Below are positions 27,817 to 36,169 of a DNA stretch of 64,000 bases, one piece after another. The notes under the pieces are model-generated. The model saw only the letters and a program-made list of their open reading frames with translations, was not told where the DNA came from and ran no database searches. Position 1 is the stretch's first letter; the number at the start of each line of letters is the position of its first letter. The DNA is from a virus (Duplodnaviria > Caudoviricetes). Where the stretch lies: positions 32,001-96,000 of the IMG/VR virus record IMGVR_UViG_2622736592_000004. One strand, written 5' to 3'. Made by a program: the position numbers and the translations under genes.

Positions 27817-28473
27817 CTAGAGGTACGAGTCGCCCCAGCTCACCGCCGGAGGGAAGGCGTACAGCGGCAGCAGATTCTGCCCAGGGGCCGTGCCATCGTC
27901 TTGCTCCTCGTCGGCTGCCTGTTCTCGCAACGTCTTCGCCAACGCCCTCAGTTCGGCGGCGACAGCAGCGCCGTTCGTCGTCAGGTCTTGCATGCTAATG
28001 ACCTTGGAGATCAGCACCTCCGACCCGGCGATGATTTCCAGCGCGGCGGCGGCACCCCGCTTGACGCTGCTTCCCTCGGCGGTGATCAGTGCGGCAAGCT
28101 GGGCGTCCTCGAACAGCGGGGCTGTCTCGTCAAGGTCGGAGATCCGCAGTCGCACCATGCCGATAGGGGTGGCCGGGTCAACCGTGATGGGCGGTAGGCC
28201 TACCAGGTCGCGGGCTACAACGAACCTGCCTTGCACCGCATCCTCGGCGGTACCGGTCGCGGTGAGGCTGTACGTGTGGGTTCCGGGGGCTGCAACCTGG
28301 TAGACGGCCCGGTAGGTGCTGCCATCAGCGGTGACCGTCATGGCAGCGGTCGTGCCGTCGGGGCGGGTCACCTCACCCGCTACGGTCGCGCCCGTCACCG
28401 GGTCGCCGTTGACACCACGCAGCGTCCATTCGGCGATGAACTGCTGCCCCTGCCAGTAGACGCGTGCGCTCAC
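27817..28473 (-). CDS. Head-tail connector with extra N-terminal Ig-like domain
   Basis: C-half GMVRLRISD....LFEDAQL...AAAALEIIA; N-half beta-rich VTRPDGT...GSTYRAVY. Confidence 0.7.
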   Translation of the reverse strand: MSARVYWQGQQFIAEWTLRGVNGDPVTGATVAGEVTRPDGTTAAMTVTADGSTYRAVYQVAAPGTHTYSLTATGTAEDAVQGRFVVARDLVGLPPITVDPATPIGMVRLRISDLDETAPLFEDAQLAALITAEGSSVKRGAAAALEIIAGSEVLISKVISMQDLTTNGAAVAAELRALAKTLREQAADEEQDDGTAPGQNLLPLYAFPPAVSWGDSYL

Positions 28474-29804
28474 AGCAGGGTCACCTCCGACCGTTGAGGC
28501 GTGGAGACTGTGCTGCCGGCGGGGATACGAACCTCGCCCCGGGCGGGTGGCGGGAGGGCGACGCCTGCAACCGACCATCCGGTGCTGATGGTCCCCTCCG
28601 CCGTGGCGGCTGTTGACCAGACTGCGTCTAGGGTTCCGCCTACGGGGGCGGTGACCGCCCAGCCGGTGGTGATCGCACCCGACGTGGGGGCGGCCACATC
28701 CCACACGGTGGCGGTGCTACCGGCGGCCGTTGACCGCACAGACCACGAGGTGCCCGCGCTGCCGCCGACTGTGGCCGAGGTAGCCCAGCCGGTGGAGGCG
28801 CTGCCTGCCGCCGCCGCCAACGCCGACCACGCGGTGCTGACACTGCCGCCCGTTGAGGTAGCCGTCGCCCAGCCAGTTACCGTGCTGCCCGACACCTGCG
28901 CGGCCACATCCCACGATGTGCTGACCCCACCGCCAGCCGCAGCGTCAACCGACCAACCGGTGGCGACCGCGCCCGACACGGTGGATGCCACAGACCATCC
29001 GGTCGCTGTCGACCCGGATGCCGTTGACGCCACCGACCACGCAGAGGCCACCGCACTAGACAGCGGGGAGGCCACCGACCAGGTGGTGCCCGCGCCGCCC
29101 GTGACCGGAGCCGACAGCGACCAGGCAGTGCCCACCGCACCCGACACAGGTGTGGTTGTCGCAGTTGGGGCGACCTCCACCAGCAGACCGATCATGGAGC
29201 TGCTGACATCGGAGGTGACAGTCTCCCCGCCGTAACTGCCTGTCGACCCGACCAGCACATACCCGGCCGCCGCCCGCACGTTCGCGTTCGTCGTCGCCCG
29301 AGACGTGCTGGTGTCGACGACCTCCGTGTAGGAGCCGTCGAGGTTGATGTTGGTGGGGATCGTGCCGGACCCGACGCGGCTGTGTGCGTCCACCAGCAGC
29401 GCCGCACCGGCTGTGACACCTGTCAGGGTGGGCAGGGTGACCGTGGTGCCGGTCGCGTTGGCGGCGGCGGCCTGAGCGATGCTGTCCGCCCCGCGCACCA
29501 CCAGCAGCTCCCAGCCGCCCGTCACGCTGCCCGAGTTGGTGATTGTCGGCGCGGTGTCCCCGGATTGCAGGATCCGATACCAGGCGTACATCCGGGATGC
29601 GGACCCATCCGCGTACGGCCACGTCACCCCGGGTAGCAGCGTCCACCCGGCCGGCGTGGACATGGTGAGGGATCCGCCGGACACGTGCCCGACTAGCAGG
29701 CCAATGTCGCCGTCAGCCCACCCGACAGGAAAGCTGGTGGCGAACGATGTCGCGGTCGCTGAGCCGGGGTTGCCGGAGGCGACACCCACGTAGGAGACCG
29801 CCAC
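28470..29804 (-). CDS. Putative fibre protein: N-terminal beta domain plus 14-aa periodic Trp repeat
   Basis: 14 Trp spaced exactly 14 aa apart in S/T/A/G/V-rich region. Confidence 0.7.
   Translation of the reverse strand: MAVSYVGVASGNPGSATATSFATSFPVGWADGDIGLLVGHVSGGSLTMSTPAGWTLLPGVTWPYADGSASRMYAWYRILQSGDTAPTITNSGSVTGGWELLVVRGADSIAQAAAANATGTTVTLPTLTGVTAGAALLVDAHSRVGSGTIPTNINLDGSYTEVVDTSTSRATTNANVRAAAGYVLVGSTGSYGGETVTSDVSSSMIGLLVEVAPTATTTPVSGAVGTAWSLSAPVTGGAGTTWSVASPLSSAVASAWSVASTASGSTATGWSVASTVSGAVATGWSVDAAAGGGVSTSWDVAAQVSGSTVTGWATATSTGGSVSTAWSALAAAAGSASTGWATSATVGGSAGTSWSVRSTAAGSTATVWDVAAPTSGAITTGWAVTAPVGGTLDAVWSTAATAEGTISTGWSVAGVALPPPARGEVRIPAGSTVSTPQRSEVTLL
28575..29123 (-). repeat. 13 x 42-bp degenerate coding tandem repeat
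   Basis: First and last Trp codons 546 bp apart (13 x 42). Confidence 0.85.
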
Positions 29805-29820: not shown

Positions 29821-30747
29821 TCAGCGCATCAGGTCGACGAACGCGGCCCGCTCGCGGTCCCGCACGTACGTCCGCCCGTCCGGGTAGGTCAGGGTCGCGT
29901 CGAGGTGGCAGTTGCCCCGGTAGAACCACGCGACGTCCGGCACGTCCGGCTGCGCCCGCAGGTACGCCATGTTGTCCCGCATCGCCTGCGCGCAGATCGC
30001 CCCGTCAGGGTCGTAGGCGGCACCGGACTTGAGCGTCGGCTTCCGTTGGATGCCCCACTCGGGGATCACCAGCGGACGGCCAACGCGCCGCGCCTGAGCG
30101 AGCGCGAAGTCGTTCCGCTCGACCGGGGTGCGATACCGCTCGTATCCGGTGTCGTAGATGTCGAACCCGACGGCGTCCACCCCATCAAACGCCGCCGCCT
30201 GCCCGAAGTCCTGCCACCATGCGTTGTTGCGGCGCGCGGCGTACTCCGTGAAAACGGGCACCAGCCACACCTCACGCCGTCGTGGATGGTCGGCGAGCGC
30301 TTCGAGCAGCTCCAGCCACTCCTGCCGGTACTCCGCCGGGGTTGGGTCTCCGGAGTCCTGCTGCTCAGGCTCGTGGTCCAGGGTCAGCAGGTCCACCACG
30401 CCACGCCTCGCCGCCGGCCGCGCCGACAGCCAGTCCCGGATCAGCGCCGGGGATGTCGTGCGAGACCAGTCCTTGAACGAGTAGTGCAGCACCGTGTCCA
30501 CCGGCACCTGGGCGAGCATCCCCGACGACCACGGCGCGATGCCCTTTCCCGGTGCGCTGTAGAGGCGCATCAGTCGGGGCTGCGGGTAGCGGGTGGCCAT
30601 GCGCTGGATGTCCGTCACGGTGCTGTCCGGTGGGCACCAGCCGAGCAGGGTCGACCCGTCCTGCACGGTAACCGTCGTCGCCGTGACGGTGGTGTTGCCG
30701 GTGGCGTCACGTACCCGCCCGGTCAACACGACCGTGCGGGCTGCCAT
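29821..30747 (-). CDS. Clan GH-A glycoside hydrolase (GH26-like), probably virion-associated
   Basis: DHEPE acid/base, VDAVGFDIY, PLVIPEWG nucleophile. Confidence 0.7.
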   Translation of the reverse strand: MAARTVVLTGRVRDATGNTTVTATTVTVQDGSTLLGWCPPDSTVTDIQRMATRYPQPRLMRLYSAPGKGIAPWSSGMLAQVPVDTVLHYSFKDWSRTTSPALIRDWLSARPAARRGVVDLLTLDHEPEQQDSGDPTPAEYRQEWLELLEALADHPRRREVWLVPVFTEYAARRNNAWWQDFGQAAAFDGVDAVGFDIYDTGYERYRTPVERNDFALAQARRVGRPLVIPEWGIQRKPTLKSGAAYDPDGAICAQAMRDNMAYLRAQPDVPDVAWFYRGNCHLDATLTYPDGRTYVRDRERAAFVDLMR

Positions 30748-31040
30748 CAGGCGACCGAGACTGTGAACCGGCCGGGGGCCGACGGGTCCTCGACGATCGT
30801 CACGCCCGGGTCATTGGCGGTCAGCTCGTAGGTGAGCGGATCCCCGACCGTGACCGTGGTCGTGGCGGACGCGGTGGCACCGTTGGCGTCGGTGACGCTG
30901 CCGGACAGGGTGATGGTGCGGGCGTCCGGGTCGAACGCGTCGATCCACACCTGCACCGCCTGGCCGGGCTGCACCGTGTCGGGGGAGGCGACAATCGAAC
31001 GGATGATGGGGGCGGCCATGCGGCGTCCAATCTGAATCAT
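30747..31040 (-). CDS. Small Ig-like beta protein
   Basis: APIIRSIVASPDTVQPG..V...AFDPD...DPLTY; alternative start 31019. Confidence 0.65.
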   Translation of the reverse strand: MIQIGRRMAAPIIRSIVASPDTVQPGQAVQVWIDAFDPDARTITLSGSVTDANGATASATTTVTVGDPLTYELTANDPGVTIVEDPSAPGRFTVSVA

Positions 31041-33636: not shown

Positions 33637-35883
33637 TCAGTTACCCCCGGTCGTGGCGGTCGGGCCGTCGAGGGCAGCCATCTGGCGCTCCCACTCGGCG
33701 TCCAGGTCGACGGTGGTGTCCGCGCTGCCGGTGTAGCCGGACATGGCGACGGGAACAGCGGTGCCGGCGGCGATGGAAGCGAGGACGCGGGTGACAACGC
33801 CGGGGGCGTCGTCGTAGTCCTTCTCCCACTTCTCCCGGTCGGCGGGGGTGAACTTGCCGAGCCGCTGCGCCTCGTCGAGGACGGACGCCTTGACGGTGGC
33901 GGTCTTCTCCGCCTCGGCGGCGGCGAGCTTCGCGGACATGGTCTGCACCTGGGAGGCGAGAACGTTGACTTCCTTGCGGAGCTCGTCGTTCTCGGCCTTC
34001 GCGGAGGCGGCGACCTGCTCGGTGTCGGGCTGGGCGGTGGCCTGGGTGTGGAGGGCGTCGAGCGCGGCCATGACGGCGTTGTCGTCGGCGTCCTCTGCCA
34101 GGCCGAGCCGGGAGCGCACGTCGGTGCTCAGAGTGGACACAGGGTCCTCTCCTTCCTTCGGTTCGGTGAATGGTGCGGGCTCCGGCTCGGCGGCCGGGAG
34201 TTCAGGTGCCGGGACGATCTCCGGCGGGGTGATGTCGGGGGCCGGTTCGGCAGGCGGCGTGACCGTGTCCGGGCCTGCGGGCGTGTCGGCGGGCTGCGGG
34301 GCGGGCCGGGACTCGTCGCGGGACGCGAACACCATCCGCGCCGCCGCCACCGGCTCGTCGGCCGGCACATACGCGGGACGCACCCGCTCGGGCGCACCGA
34401 AGCGGATGCTGTCGCCGTCCACGGACACCGGCACACGAACCAGCGACCGGTCCGTGTTGTCCATGACGATGACCTCGTCTTCGGCGGCCTCCACAACCCA
34501 CTGCTGCTCCGGCGGCTTCGACGCGTTCCACGCCTCGTGGATGCGCTCCACCAACCCCGGCGTCGGGTTAGGCATCAGTTCTCCATTCCTTCCGTCCGAG
34601 GCGTGAACCCCCCGGTTACGCCGGTCACCCGGCCAGTAGCCGTACCGGTCGTGGAACCAGGCGGCGGCGATGCGTTTCGCTCTCTCCGGTGACACGTGGT
34701 GGCGCAGGTGCTTGTACAGGTCCGTCCACGTCGTCCACCGGGCCAGGCCCTTCCCGAGCCAAAACCGTTTGAGCTGGTTTTCATCGGCTGCCGCCATCAC
34801 CGGGTCGCCGGTGGTGTCCCCGTAGTCGGCGGGCAGCGGCTCCGGTTCGGTGAGTAGCGGAATGTCGAGGCGTTCACCGGCGAACGCGATCCGCACCCGG
34901 TCGAACACGACCGGGCCGGTCCGGTCGTACAGCGCCGCGAGTTGGGTGGGGTCGGCCGTGTAGGTGAGGGTCAGGTGGGCGTTCCACGGGGCGTGTTGGT
35001 CAGGCAGGTCCAGGCCGGCGAGCGCGTCGGCGACAAGCCGGTGGACGACTTCCAGGTCGGCTCCGGACATGCCGAGCACGGTGCACGGTTCTCGTTCGCT
35101 GCTGCCCGGGTTGAACAGGGCGAGGCTGAACCCGTCGGCGTTGGCGGTGGGCATGCCGTCGACTGCTCCGGCGACGGCGGCGATGATGTCTTGCCGCGCG
35201 GCAGGGGTGAGGTCGACGGCGTCACCGAGGTAGGCGAGGGTGACGTGGAGTTCGTCAGCGGGTTCCCCGCCGTCAACTGCCAGCCGGGCGGCGTCTTCGG
35301 CGGTGGGGATCAGCGCCACCATCGCCCCGGTGTGGGCCGGCGGATCATCGTCGGCGGCAGCGCGCACTGAGGCGACGATGCGCACCTCACCGGCTGCCGG
35401 ATCCCGATGCGCCGCCGCGACCCCGTAGAGGGCTTTGACGTCGTTGAGGCTGGACAGGGTCGACACCCCGGGCGGGGTGACACCGAGCAGCGCCACCGCA
35501 GTCAACACGAACGGATGCGTGTGCCCAATACCGCACCGATAGTTGTAGGTGCCCTCCACCGACCGGTTCGGCCACGCGGCGGCCTGCACCCCGGTCAACC
35601 ACGACGGCGCGACCTGGTCACCGACGAGGGTGTGGCCGCCGTCGGCGGTGCGAAGGTTCTCGTACCAGCCGATCGCCGGTTCCCCATCGCCGGGGGTGAA
35701 CCGCTTGTCGGTGTGCCCGATCTTGATGATGGGCTTGCCGATGGCCGGGCACGACAGGGCGGCGACGGCGGCGGCGATGTCCTGCCGGGATGCCCGCCAC
35801 GTGCCGGTGCTGATCTGCCAGGTGCCGGTGCGGACGAGTTCCACCCCGTCGCGGCGGGCCATCTGCACGGTGTCGGTGGGCAT
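33637..35883 (-). CDS. Capsid maturation protease - 2H phosphoesterase - scaffold polyprotein
   Basis: IKIGH...PAIGW...RSVE...VALLGVTPPGV; HVTL and HLTL; C-terminal coiled coil. Confidence 0.8.
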   Translation of the reverse strand: MPTDTVQMARRDGVELVRTGTWQISTGTWRASRQDIAAAVAALSCPAIGKPIIKIGHTDKRFTPGDGEPAIGWYENLRTADGGHTLVGDQVAPSWLTGVQAAAWPNRSVEGTYNYRCGIGHTHPFVLTAVALLGVTPPGVSTLSSLNDVKALYGVAAAHRDPAAGEVRIVASVRAAADDDPPAHTGAMVALIPTAEDAARLAVDGGEPADELHVTLAYLGDAVDLTPAARQDIIAAVAGAVDGMPTANADGFSLALFNPGSSEREPCTVLGMSGADLEVVHRLVADALAGLDLPDQHAPWNAHLTLTYTADPTQLAALYDRTGPVVFDRVRIAFAGERLDIPLLTEPEPLPADYGDTTGDPVMAAADENQLKRFWLGKGLARWTTWTDLYKHLRHHVSPERAKRIAAAWFHDRYGYWPGDRRNRGVHASDGRNGELMPNPTPGLVERIHEAWNASKPPEQQWVVEAAEDEVIVMDNTDRSLVRVPVSVDGDSIRFGAPERVRPAYVPADEPVAAARMVFASRDESRPAPQPADTPAGPDTVTPPAEPAPDITPPEIVPAPELPAAEPEPAPFTEPKEGEDPVSTLSTDVRSRLGLAEDADDNAVMAALDALHTQATAQPDTEQVAASAKAENDELRKEVNVLASQVQTMSAKLAAAEAEKTATVKASVLDEAQRLGKFTPADREKWEKDYDDAPGVVTRVLASIAAGTAVPVAMSGYTGSADTTVDLDAEWERQMAALDGPTATTGGN

Positions 35884-35893
35884 GGTCACCGCA

Positions 35894-36169
35894 TCACACC
35901 CGCTCGGGCCAATGCCACGTGCCGCCCTGGTGGTTGTCCTCCGACTGGGGGCAGCGGTTGAAGAACAGACCGGTGGGGTTGAGCACGACCAGGTCGACCA
36001 CGACGGCGTCGGAGTCCCATTCCTCGGCACGATCGGGGTCGGCGACGGGCAACGCGCCGACCGGTACTCCGGCGACGATCGCGGCCCGGCACTGGCTGGT
36101 GTACTCGCCACCAGGCGTGCCATAGCTGACGTAGTGCACGATGCGGCCGACGCTCGGCTGCTGACTCAC
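35894..36169 (-). CDS. Conserved small phage protein
   Basis: PSVGRIVHY...RAAIV...GTWHWP; AGGAG RBS. Confidence 0.7.
   Translation of the reverse strand: MSQQPSVGRIVHYVSYGTPGGEYTSQCRAAIVAGVPVGALPVADPDRAEEWDSDAVVVDLVVLNPTGLFFNRCPQSEDNHQGGTWHWPERV

What the first reader, a model, noticed from the sequence alone, without database searches (positions are those of the whole stretch)
30664..30924. Shared beta-hairpin between the Ig-like protein and the hydrolase N-terminus
Seen: ARTITLSGSVTDANGATASATTTVTV, inserted mid-domain in the 97-aa protein, matches ARTVVLTGRVRDATGNTTVTATTVTV, the whole N-terminal extension of the adjacent hydrolase. Inference: donor-strand-like complementation, with Ig subunits chained by hairpin exchange and capped by the enzyme, as in a pilus.
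Basis: partly seen in the sequence, partly recalled or inferred. Interest (0 to 1): 0.7.

Follow-up and report, generated by a model that had tools for sequence, protein, structure and literature searches.

The report
Split Ig domain docks phage enzyme
A small Ig-like phage protein lacks the last two strands of its fold, and the next gene, a sugar-cutting enzyme, begins with exactly that missing hairpin, so the two most likely snap together; the same tag-and-socket pairing recurs with unrelated enzymes in other phages and soil bacteria.

Summary
Window 30846-30923(-) and 30664-30741(-) encode two 26-residue hairpins that are 15/26 identical. A profile of the enzyme hairpin, run against all 83,839 six-frame ORFs of the genome, finds only the two hydrolases and their two Ig neighbours.

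Profile-profile alignment shows that the 90-aa protein plus the hydrolase's first 28 residues form one canonical Big_9/PKD-type Ig domain (E=6e-16). The small protein carries strands A-E. The enzyme's N-terminus supplies the terminal F-G hairpin. The small protein's own hairpin is an insertion in the DPD|GDP junction, so it is indeed inserted mid-domain.

The same module is a single chain in about 25 Micromonospora genomes, where the two hairpins no longer resemble each other (z about 0). Split pairs in phages and metagenomes keep them matched (z 5-15) despite saturated synonymous change. Their downstream enzymes belong to unrelated folds: GH-A barrel, beta-helix and phosphoesterase.

Best reading: hairpin complementation in trans docks the enzyme to the Ig protein. 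A pilus-like Ig chain and virion incorporation remain untested. No hetero-complex fold could be run. The scan holds no notes on this from other DNA.

The parts
30747..31019 (-). Gene for the small Ig-like protein. It is 90 aa from ATG 31019; an upstream in-frame ATG at 31040 would give 97 aa. It carries strands A, A', B, the inserted hairpin, then C, C', E of a Big_9/PKD-type domain. The terminal F-G strands are absent.
   Evidence: ORF list. Homologues start at Met8. AF2 model pLDDT 85.5 with six strands. Weak Ig-like fold matches, Z about 5. Composite profile alignment to canonical repeats.
30846..30923 (-). Hairpin 1 (hp1), 26 residues, inserted between strands B and C of the small protein.
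   Evidence: Translation. Strands 34-43 and 49-58 in the AF2 model. Treated as an insertion relative to canonical Big_9/PKD repeats.
30924..30932 (-). DPD motif at the end of strand B, the upstream flank of the insertion. In canonical relatives it runs straight into the G-D-x-L motif.
   Evidence: Translation. Invariant in the family. Canonical repeats; the L114 domain.
30834..30845 (-). GDPL motif at the start of strand C, the downstream flank of the insertion. It is invariant in the close family.
   Evidence: This stretch is coil in the AF2 monomer (residues 59-72).
30745..30749 (-). TGATG stop/start overlap that couples the two genes. The hydrolase is in the -1 frame.
   Evidence: Sequence read. 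Spacing and frame vary in other split lineages, which argues against a recoded fusion.
30664..30741 (-). Hairpin 2 (hp2), residues 3-28 of the hydrolase. It is the canonical F-G hairpin of the Ig domain, encoded on the enzyme.
   Evidence: Translation. Strands 4-13 and 19-28, with block-mean pLDDT 66, 89 and 72 over residues 1-30. Outside all barrel alignments. Aligns to F-G of canonical repeats.
29821..30747 (-). Gene for the 308-aa glycoside hydrolase: hp2 followed by a clan GH-A (beta/alpha)8 barrel.
   Evidence: Pfam Glyco_hydro_cc at 22.9 bits against a cut-off of 21. AF2 pLDDT 93.5. GH26 lichenase 2cip_A Z=23.0, 245 aligned, rmsd 3.3 Å, model range 31-308. Foldseek E=5.5e-10.
30364..30375 (-). 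HEPE motif; it holds the candidate acid/base glutamate on strand 4 of the barrel. Invariant in 32 homologues.
30052..30063 (-). PEWG motif; it holds the candidate nucleophile glutamate on strand 7 of the barrel. E230 is invariant.

Best explanation
The 90-aa protein and the first 28 residues of the hydrolase are two pieces of one Big_9/PKD-type Ig domain.

- The small protein supplies strands A to E. It also carries an extra copy of the F-G hairpin (hp1) inserted in its B-C junction.
- The hydrolase begins with the canonical F-G hairpin (hp2), followed directly by a GH26-like clan GH-A barrel with both catalytic glutamates.
- The two genes are translationally coupled.

Inferred mechanism: after synthesis, hp2 inserts into the open F-G slot of the small protein. 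This completes its beta-sandwich and gives a non-covalent Ig-plus-glycanase enzyme equivalent to the single-chain form found in other Micromonospora genomes.

hp1 most likely acts as a built-in stand-in for that slot. It would fill the slot imperfectly in cis until the enzyme's hairpin displaces it. Alternatively it is donated to another copy.

The same socket-and-tag pairing serves as a modular coupling device elsewhere. Homologous small Ig proteins are followed by beta-helix, phosphoesterase and other enzymes that carry a matching hairpin tag.

Shown: the sequence relations, the topology mapping, the distribution, and the matched evolution of the hairpins. Inferred: physical docking, displacement of hp1, and the biological target (a host envelope glycan).
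For: 1. Specific, reciprocal hairpin similarity.

2. Topology. Ig minus hp1 plus hp2 aligns end to end (92 columns) with canonical Big_9/PKD repeats, Prob 98.8%, E=6e-16. The score is lower with hp1 left in (E=5e-12). Canonical relatives have the DPD and G-D-x-L motifs contiguous and a terminal F-G hairpin.

3. Rosetta-stone fusion. 23 distinct single-chain proteins of about 367 aa have the order Ig, short linker, hp2, GH.

4. hp2 is not part of the barrel. All 50 listed structural alignments start at model residues 27-35, and Z=23 for 31-308. Secreted and other-domain homologues lack hp2.

5. The tag sits on unrelated enzymes behind homologous small Ig proteins: Beta_helix (L101, L104), Phosphoesterase PF04185 (L105), GH-A-like (L100), unknown (L102, L113).

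6. Matched evolution. Enzyme N-terminus against its own Ig gives z=4.9-15.3 in 16 split pairs, always at Ig positions about 33-63. In fused proteins z is 0.4 and -0.3. The cognate or own-clade Ig is the best match for most split lineages, and these share odd lineage-specific features.

7. Protein-level selection, not recent conversion. 92 of 175 identical hairpin residues use different codons, nucleotide identity is 52-74%, and the longest identical runs are 4-14 nt.

8. The AF2 monomer of the small protein leaves the invariant C-strand stretch as coil, and the five models spread from pLDDT 85 to 50.
Against: - No structure of the complex or of the fused N-terminal module could be predicted.
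- The best AF2 monomer is a fairly confident compact sheet protein (pLDDT 85.5), so the small protein may be self-sufficient through hp1.
- One Micromonospora lineage of split pairs (group 3) shows only weak hairpin matching (z 2.5-3.7).
- Three related phage contigs (L088-L090) carry a hairpin-like N-terminus on the hydrolase with no detectable Ig gene in the locus.
- One small Ig gene (L108) has no tagged enzyme downstream.
- Lineage-specific matching could also stem from old gene-conversion events followed by purifying selection.
Confidence: 0.6

Rival explanations
1. Pilus-like polymer. hp2 of the enzyme fills the slot of one Ig subunit. That subunit's displaced hp1 fills the slot of the next, and so on. 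The result is a fibre of Ig subunits with one enzyme at the acceptor end, mounted on the virion.
For: - There are two similar hairpins for one slot.
- hp1 and hp2 are similar in the same strand order. The 2-3-residue link from hp1 to strand C seems too short for hp1 to take the canonical F-G arrangement in cis; this is inference from Ig topology.
- hp1 is present in every stand-alone family member seen.
- In the phages the module sits among head/neck or tail-end genes.
Against: - No oligomer test was possible.
- Tight one-to-one translational coupling of the genes.
- The module also occurs as a bare two-gene cassette or single gene at non-phage chromosomal sites.
- The AF2 monomer is compact.
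- No assembly factors are nearby.
Confidence: 0.2
2. Evolutionary leftover only. The hydrolase hairpin is a remnant of gene fission and hp1 an old internal duplication. The small protein folds by itself, and the two proteins do not need each other's hairpins.
For: - The compact AF2 monomer.
- Hairpin-bearing hydrolases without an Ig gene.
- Weak matching in group 3.
Against: - hp2 is kept under purifying selection in every lineage.
- hp2 has been joined to at least three unrelated catalytic folds.
- The hairpins stay matched when the genes are split and diverge when fused.
- The barrel does not need hp2.
Confidence: 0.1
3. Common third partner. Both hairpins are recognised by the same other molecule, such as a virion docking site, a chaperone or a glycan, rather than by the Ig slot.
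For: Matched evolution of the two hairpins. Neighbouring structural genes of unknown role: the 178-aa and 444-aa proteins.
Against: - The module persists as a bare pair or single chain without those neighbours.
- hp2 maps onto core strands of the Ig fold, not onto a surface loop.
Confidence: 0.07
4. Chance resemblance of two Thr/Val/Ala-rich beta-strand segments, or the generic Ig-repeat F-G motif.
For: BLASTP supports only 15 residues at E=0.003. The motif type is common in Big/PKD repeats.
Against: - The genome-wide HMM search finds only the neighbours.
- Shuffles keep composition yet give z=8.3.
- Lineage-specific oddities are shared by partners.
Confidence: 0.01

Closest known systems
Donor-strand complementation and exchange in chaperone-usher pili (established knowledge)
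   Same: An Ig-like subunit lacks terminal strand(s) of its fold. An N-terminal extension of another protein supplies them. A stand-in filler may be displaced by the final donor.
   Different: - Here two strands (a hairpin) are donated, not one.
- The donor is an enzyme, not another pilin.
- The acceptor carries its own internal copy of the hairpin.
- There is no signal peptide, chaperone or usher.
- The host is an actinobacterial phage or chromosome.
- Polymerisation is unproven.
Big_9 / PKD / K319L-like PKD tandem Ig repeats of bacterial surface proteins (Pfam PF17963, PF00801, PF22352)
   Same: The composite of small protein plus hp2 aligns over the whole repeat. The N-terminal A-B strands and the DPD and G-D-x-L motifs are shared.
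   Different: - The domain is split between strands E and F onto two polypeptides.
- It has a 26-residue hairpin inserted in the B-C junction.
- It stands alone rather than in tandem arrays.
- Pfam models do not reach threshold on the small protein alone.
N-terminal Ig-like (E-set type) accessory domains fused to glycoside hydrolases (established knowledge), and the single-chain Micromonospora relatives found here
   Same: The order is Ig-like module, then catalytic barrel. The fused relatives are direct homologues.
   Different: In the phage the module is cut within the Ig domain, so the association must be non-covalent.
GH26 lichenase CtLic26A and other clan GH-A barrels (PDB 2cip, 2bv9)
   Same: Same (beta/alpha)8 fold (Z=23, 245 residues, rmsd 3.3 Å). 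Glutamates on strands 4 and 7 are conserved.
   Different: 12% identity. The only Pfam hit is Glyco_hydro_cc (the GH128 type), just above cut-off. The substrate is unknown. The extra N-terminal hairpin is absent from the solved enzymes.
Modular docking of phage depolymerases through conserved N-terminal anchor domains; cohesin-dockerin; engineered SpyTag/SpyCatcher split Ig domain (established knowledge)
   Same: A constant short N-terminal tag sits on variable enzymes, paired with a constant small receptor protein. The SpyTag case is also a split Ig-like domain completed by a peptide.
   Different: - The tag here is a native two-strand core element of the receptor's own fold.
- No isopeptide chemistry is implied.
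- No homology to these systems.

Membership tests
Big_9 / PKD-type bacterial Ig-like domain | Full-length profile match: strands A-B, DPD-G-D-x-L junction, C, C', E, F-G. | tested here: met
   hhalign global. Module without hp1 plus hp2 against 11 canonical repeats that score as Big_9/PKD in Pfam: Prob 98.8%, E=6.1e-16, 92 columns.
Big_9 / PKD-type bacterial Ig-like domain | All strands of the domain lie on one polypeptide, and a curated Pfam model reaches threshold. | tested here: not met
   The small protein ends after strand E, and F-G lie on the next gene product. Pfam gives no Ig family at threshold on the 97-aa ORF. Relatives give only sub-threshold Big_6, Big_13 and Big_7 hits.
Chaperone-usher pilus subunits (donor-strand complementation) | Ig-like subunit with missing C-terminal strand(s), complemented by an N-terminal extension of another chain. 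| tested here: inconclusive
   The missing F-G strands and an N-terminal donor are shown at sequence and profile level. Physical complementation was not tested.
Chaperone-usher pilus subunits (donor-strand complementation) | Dedicated periplasmic chaperone and outer-membrane usher genes, and signal peptides. | tested here: not met
   The neighbours are phage head, neck and tail genes. Neither protein has an N-terminal signal-like segment. The host is a Gram-positive actinobacterium.
Chaperone-usher pilus subunits (donor-strand complementation) | Homopolymer of subunits. | not testable with these tools
   No multimer prediction was available.
Clan GH-A glycoside hydrolase (GH26-like) | (beta/alpha)8 barrel. 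| tested here: met
   AF2 pLDDT 93.5. 2cip_A Z=23.0, 245 aligned, rmsd 3.3 Å. Foldseek E=5.5e-10.
Clan GH-A glycoside hydrolase (GH26-like) | Two catalytic glutamates at the ends of strands 4 and 7. | tested here: met
   The HEPE and PEWG glutamates are invariant in 32 homologues, and their coordinates were checked. Placing them on strands 4 and 7 is by analogy with the clan, not by residue-level superposition.
Clan GH-A glycoside hydrolase (GH26-like) | Sequence membership of CAZy family GH26 specifically. | tested here: inconclusive
   The only Pfam hit is Glyco_hydro_cc PF11790 (22.9 bits, cut-off 21). One homologue is named GH26 by NCBI. Identity to solved GH26 enzymes is 12%.
Phage tailspike/depolymerase with N-terminal virion anchor | Virion-associated enzyme in the structural gene block with a conserved N-terminal anchor. 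| tested here: inconclusive
   The gene lies between the connector-like and tail genes. In L101 the tagged beta-helix enzyme sits just before the endolysin and the adjoining membrane-protein gene. There are no virion proteomics, and the module also occurs outside prophages.

The most novel reading that the evidence does not exclude
This is a natural donor-hairpin exchange system. The small Ig protein keeps its empty F-G slot occupied by its own inserted hairpin. The N-terminal hairpin tag of a cargo enzyme displaces that stand-in. The freed hairpin can then invade the next Ig subunit, so enzymes of many kinds are mounted on self-assembling Ig scaffolds on virions or cell surfaces of actinobacteria.
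Probability: 0.3. Interest if true: 0.9.

Novelty: new variant of a known kind. Interest (0 to 1): 0.75.

Why it matters
If the docking is real, this is a compact natural way to attach enzymes non-covalently. The socket is a 5-strand Ig protein of about 90 aa, and the tag is a hairpin of about 25 residues that is a core piece of the socket's own fold.

It would carry the donor-strand principle of Gram-negative pili over to phages and Gram-positive actinobacteria, and from single strands to hairpins. It would also explain how phages swap depolymerase-type enzymes (glycanase, beta-helix, phosphoesterase) behind a constant adaptor.

The contrast between fused and split forms gives a clean evolutionary test case: the hairpins match only when the chains must find each other. 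Such tag/socket pairs could also serve as protein-engineering parts.

The family has about 60 clusters of stand-alone small Ig proteins among the best 150 hits of a 1.8-billion-protein search. None of the three members queried has a match in cultured phage records, so the family is essentially unstudied.

Tried and rejected
1. Chance or low complexity: rejected.

2. Recent duplication or ongoing gene conversion: rejected.
   - DNA identity is 63% in the window, and the longest identical run is 8 nt.
   - 53% of identical residues use different codons.
   - Within the close lineage there is no excess of same-locus over other-locus identity (0.51 against 0.49).

3. Recoded fusion by frameshift or read-through: rejected. 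There is no slippery site at the TGATG junction, and the spacing and frame of the two genes differ among lineages.

4. Tandem duplication of a whole half-domain: not supported. The parts before the hairpins do not align (P=0.057).

5. Hairpin as an integral cap of the barrel: not supported (homologues without it).

6. My impression that the N-domain of the 524-aa homologue resembles the 444-aa neighbour: wrong.

7. Searches that found nothing useful:
   - Cultured phage records for the hydrolase and three Ig family members.
   - PDB by sequence, spurious hits only.
   - Foldseek of the Ig model.
   - Genome contigs with the close Ig alignment.
   - Literature.
   - The ESM Atlas gave only sub-threshold Ig-type leads.

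Full report
**Observation.**
The window is a 70% G+C stretch of a Micromonospora genome (source names). It carries a siphovirus-type prophage read on the minus strand. The gene order is:
- a 575-aa ORF and a 685-aa ORF at the terminase and portal positions (by position only; no family search was run on them);
- an 828-aa protease/2H-phosphoesterase/scaffold fusion;
- the major capsid protein;
- a connector-like protein;
- a 178-aa protein;
- the small Ig-like protein;
- the hydrolase;
- a 444-aa Trp-repeat protein;
- an adaptor-like protein, a tube-like protein and a 1440-aa ORF at the tape-measure position (the last two by position and size only).

Translation confirms the two quoted 26-residue segments at 30846-30923(-) and 30664-30741(-). 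They are 15/26 identical. The small gene really starts at its eighth codon, giving 90 aa. Its stop overlaps the hydrolase start as TGATG. No promoter-like or terminator-like sites lie in the block.

**Is it more than chance?**
- BLASTP is lukewarm: 15 residues, E=0.003.
- I built a 28-position HMM from 13 hydrolase N-termini. I searched it, filters off, against every six-frame ORF of at least 40 aa in the whole 7.9-Mb genome (83,839 ORFs).
- After the two hydrolase copies (the genome holds a second, related prophage on another contig), the next two hits are exactly the two adjacent small Ig proteins (E=7e-5 and 2.4e-4). The next hit is at E=0.29.
- The reverse search with the Ig HMM finds the hydrolase N-termini in several genomes.
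- Profile-profile comparison of the two hairpins gives P=1.2e-9 within the lineage.
- Composition-preserving shuffles give z=8.3.

**The two proteins.**
- The hydrolase model is confident (pLDDT 93.5).
- Residues 31-308 superpose on the GH26 lichenase CtLic26A (Z=23.0, 245 residues, rmsd 3.3 Å) and on other clan GH-A barrels.
- None of the 50 listed alignments starts before residue 27.
- The HEPE and PEWG glutamates are invariant in 32 homologues.
- Homologues with a signal peptide or with other N-terminal domains lack the hairpin. It is therefore an appendage and not part of the barrel.
- The small protein gives a six-strand model (best pLDDT 85.5; the five models range down to 50). Its invariant stretch after the hairpin is modelled as coil.
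- Foldseek finds nothing for this model. An all-against-all structural search gives only middling Ig-like matches: Big_1 of FdeC and invasin, the lambda gpV C-terminal domain and the phi29 capsid Ig domain, at Z about 5.

**Topology, the key result.**
- A profile of the small-protein family was searched against 1.84 billion cluster representatives. It finds two things: many stand-alone proteins of 85-94 aa, and tandem Ig repeats that Pfam calls Big_9, PKD or K319L-like PKD.
- In those canonical repeats the DPD motif at the end of strand B runs straight into the G-D-x-L motif of strand C. The domain ends with an F-G hairpin of the familiar 'strand, D-x-x-G turn, strand' type.
- A phage fibre-like protein (L114) holds such a canonical domain that matches the small-protein HMM in two abutting pieces. 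It skips exactly the hairpin positions and then has its hairpin after strand E (Big_9 E=9e-6).
- I removed the hp1 columns from a 50-sequence alignment of the module (small protein plus enzyme N-terminus). I aligned the rest globally to 11 canonical repeats. The result was Prob 98.8%, E=6e-16 over 92 columns.
- In that alignment the small protein covers strands A to E and the enzyme's hairpin covers F-G. Leaving hp1 in lowers the score (E=5e-12), and hp1 is treated as an insertion.
More importantly, the small protein lacks the last two core strands of its fold, and the next gene begins with them.

**Relatives.**
Three lineages of the same module exist in the genus:
1. Split pairs like the window's. 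These occur in prophages, and also as a bare two-gene cassette at a conserved non-phage site next to toxin-antitoxin-like genes (the latter judged by eye, not family-searched).
2. A single-chain protein of about 367 aa with the order Ig, four-residue linker, hp2, barrel. There are 23 distinct sequences, at a conserved chromosomal site.
3. Another split pair with a more distant barrel, in roughly 100 of 275 genomes, again chromosomal.

Further points:
- The break always falls between strand E and hp2.
- At E<=1e-5 the close family was found in 19 of 27 sampled genomes of the genus. It was found in none of 274 genomes sampled from the rest of the order.
- One prophage carries a deletion variant in which the first third of the small protein is fused to the barrel.

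**Beyond the genus.**
- Small Ig proteins of this family from IMG/VR and soil metagenomes are almost always followed, within -4 to +10 nt, by a protein whose first ~25 residues resemble the Ig protein's own inserted hairpin.
- The enzyme behind the tag differs:
  - right-handed beta-helix in L101 and L104, and by homology to L104 in L103;
  - Phosphoesterase PF04185 in L105;
  - GH-A-like, by its motifs only (no Pfam hit), in L100;
  - unknown folds in L102 and L113, the latter an Acidimicrobiia MAG.
- One small Ig gene (L108) has no tagged neighbour.
- Three phage contigs (L088-L090) have a hairpin-like hydrolase N-terminus but no detectable Ig gene.

**Matched evolution.**
- In 16 split pairs outside lineage 3, the enzyme N-terminus matches its own Ig protein with z=4.9-15.3. 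At most one of 2000 shuffles reaches the score, and the match is always at Ig positions about 33-63.
- In lineage 3, z is 2.5-3.7.
- In the fused proteins, z is 0.4 and -0.3 (hhalign P=0.37).
- Partners share lineage-specific oddities. The cognate or own-clade Ig is the best match for most split lineages; the fused forms rank 16th of 18.
- This is not recent conversion. 92 of 175 identical residues use different codons, nucleotide identity is 52-74%, and identical runs are 4-14 nt.
- Among close relatives, same-locus identity (0.51) does not exceed other-locus identity (0.49).
- The simplest reading: both hairpins must fit the same slot when the chains are separate, and this constraint lapses when they are joined.

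**Mechanism.**
Shown:
- the split-domain topology;
- the tag on diverse enzymes;
- the fusion;
- the selection pattern.

Inferred:
- hp2 completes the small protein's sandwich in trans, which docks the enzyme.
- For hp1 I favour a stand-in role. In cis it can reach the slot only in a non-canonical strand order, because its link to strand C is two or three residues long. This is reminiscent of the chaperone strand in pilus assembly.
- The biological target is probably a host envelope glycan, attacked either from the virion or at lysis. The gene position and the neighbouring wall-polymer enzymes in related loci (a GDPD-domain protein in L100, an M15 peptidase next to the L101 module) fit this but do not prove it.

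**Limits.**
- There is no complex or fused-module structure.
- The number of independent split lineages is modest.
- The earlier notes of this scan on this stretch are all first-reader notes on the same genome. They agree on the GH26-like enzyme and on the shared segment, but add no independent evidence.

Noticed in passing
L022:9332-10258 (-) and L084: A prophage in another Micromonospora genome encodes a 309-aa protein. In it the first ~40 residues of the small Ig protein (strands A-B and the DPD motif) are joined through a single short strand directly to the hydrolase barrel. This is a deletion spanning most of both hairpins and strands C-E. The same genome also holds an intact Ig+hydrolase cassette elsewhere.
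   Followed up: partly
L021, L024, L025 (Ig gene at about 9347-9613 in L021): The Ig+hydrolase pair sits alone, without any phage gene, at one conserved chromosomal site in three genomes. On one side are a methyltransferase-like gene and a Dtd-like gene. On the other is a small ribbon-helix-helix/toxin-like pair. All four neighbour names are by eye only; no family search was run on them.
   Followed up: partly
L059, L060, L063-L082: A second, more distant split pair (89-aa Ig protein plus a 345-aa barrel enzyme with no Pfam hit) is present in roughly 100 of 275 genomes of the genus at a non-phage site. Neither protein has a signal peptide, so how or whether they leave the cell is unexplained.
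   Followed up: partly
window 33637-36123 (-): An 828-aa head protein combines a Mu-gpI-like protease/scaffold with an internal 2H phosphoesterase (LigT-like) domain. That domain also hits the anti-CBASS Acb1 family below threshold.
   Followed up: no
window 28470-29804 (-): A 444-aa protein directly after the hydrolase has a globular N-domain followed by many regularly spaced Trp-containing repeats (PHROG 'tail protein', E=1e-10). Relatives follow the hydrolase in other prophages (L022, L023, L090).
   Followed up: no
L100:4637-6883 (+): In a related viral contig, the gene after the tagged hydrolase encodes a 749-aa protein with a glycerophosphodiester phosphodiesterase (GDPD) domain and Ser/Gly/Thr repeats. 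This suggests a teichoic-acid-type target for the whole module.
   Followed up: no
L114:2203-4503 (+): A 767-aa fibre-like protein of a low-G+C viral contig contains one canonical, unsplit domain of this Ig type, followed by many repeats of about 45 residues that look like a beta-propeller. It served as the natural 'no insertion' comparator.
   Followed up: partly
G000 contig C13, L023:8930-10056 (+): The same genome carries a second prophage with its own Ig+hydrolase pair. Its hydrolase is 58-61% identical to the window's, and its two hairpins are 65% identical to each other.
   Followed up: yes
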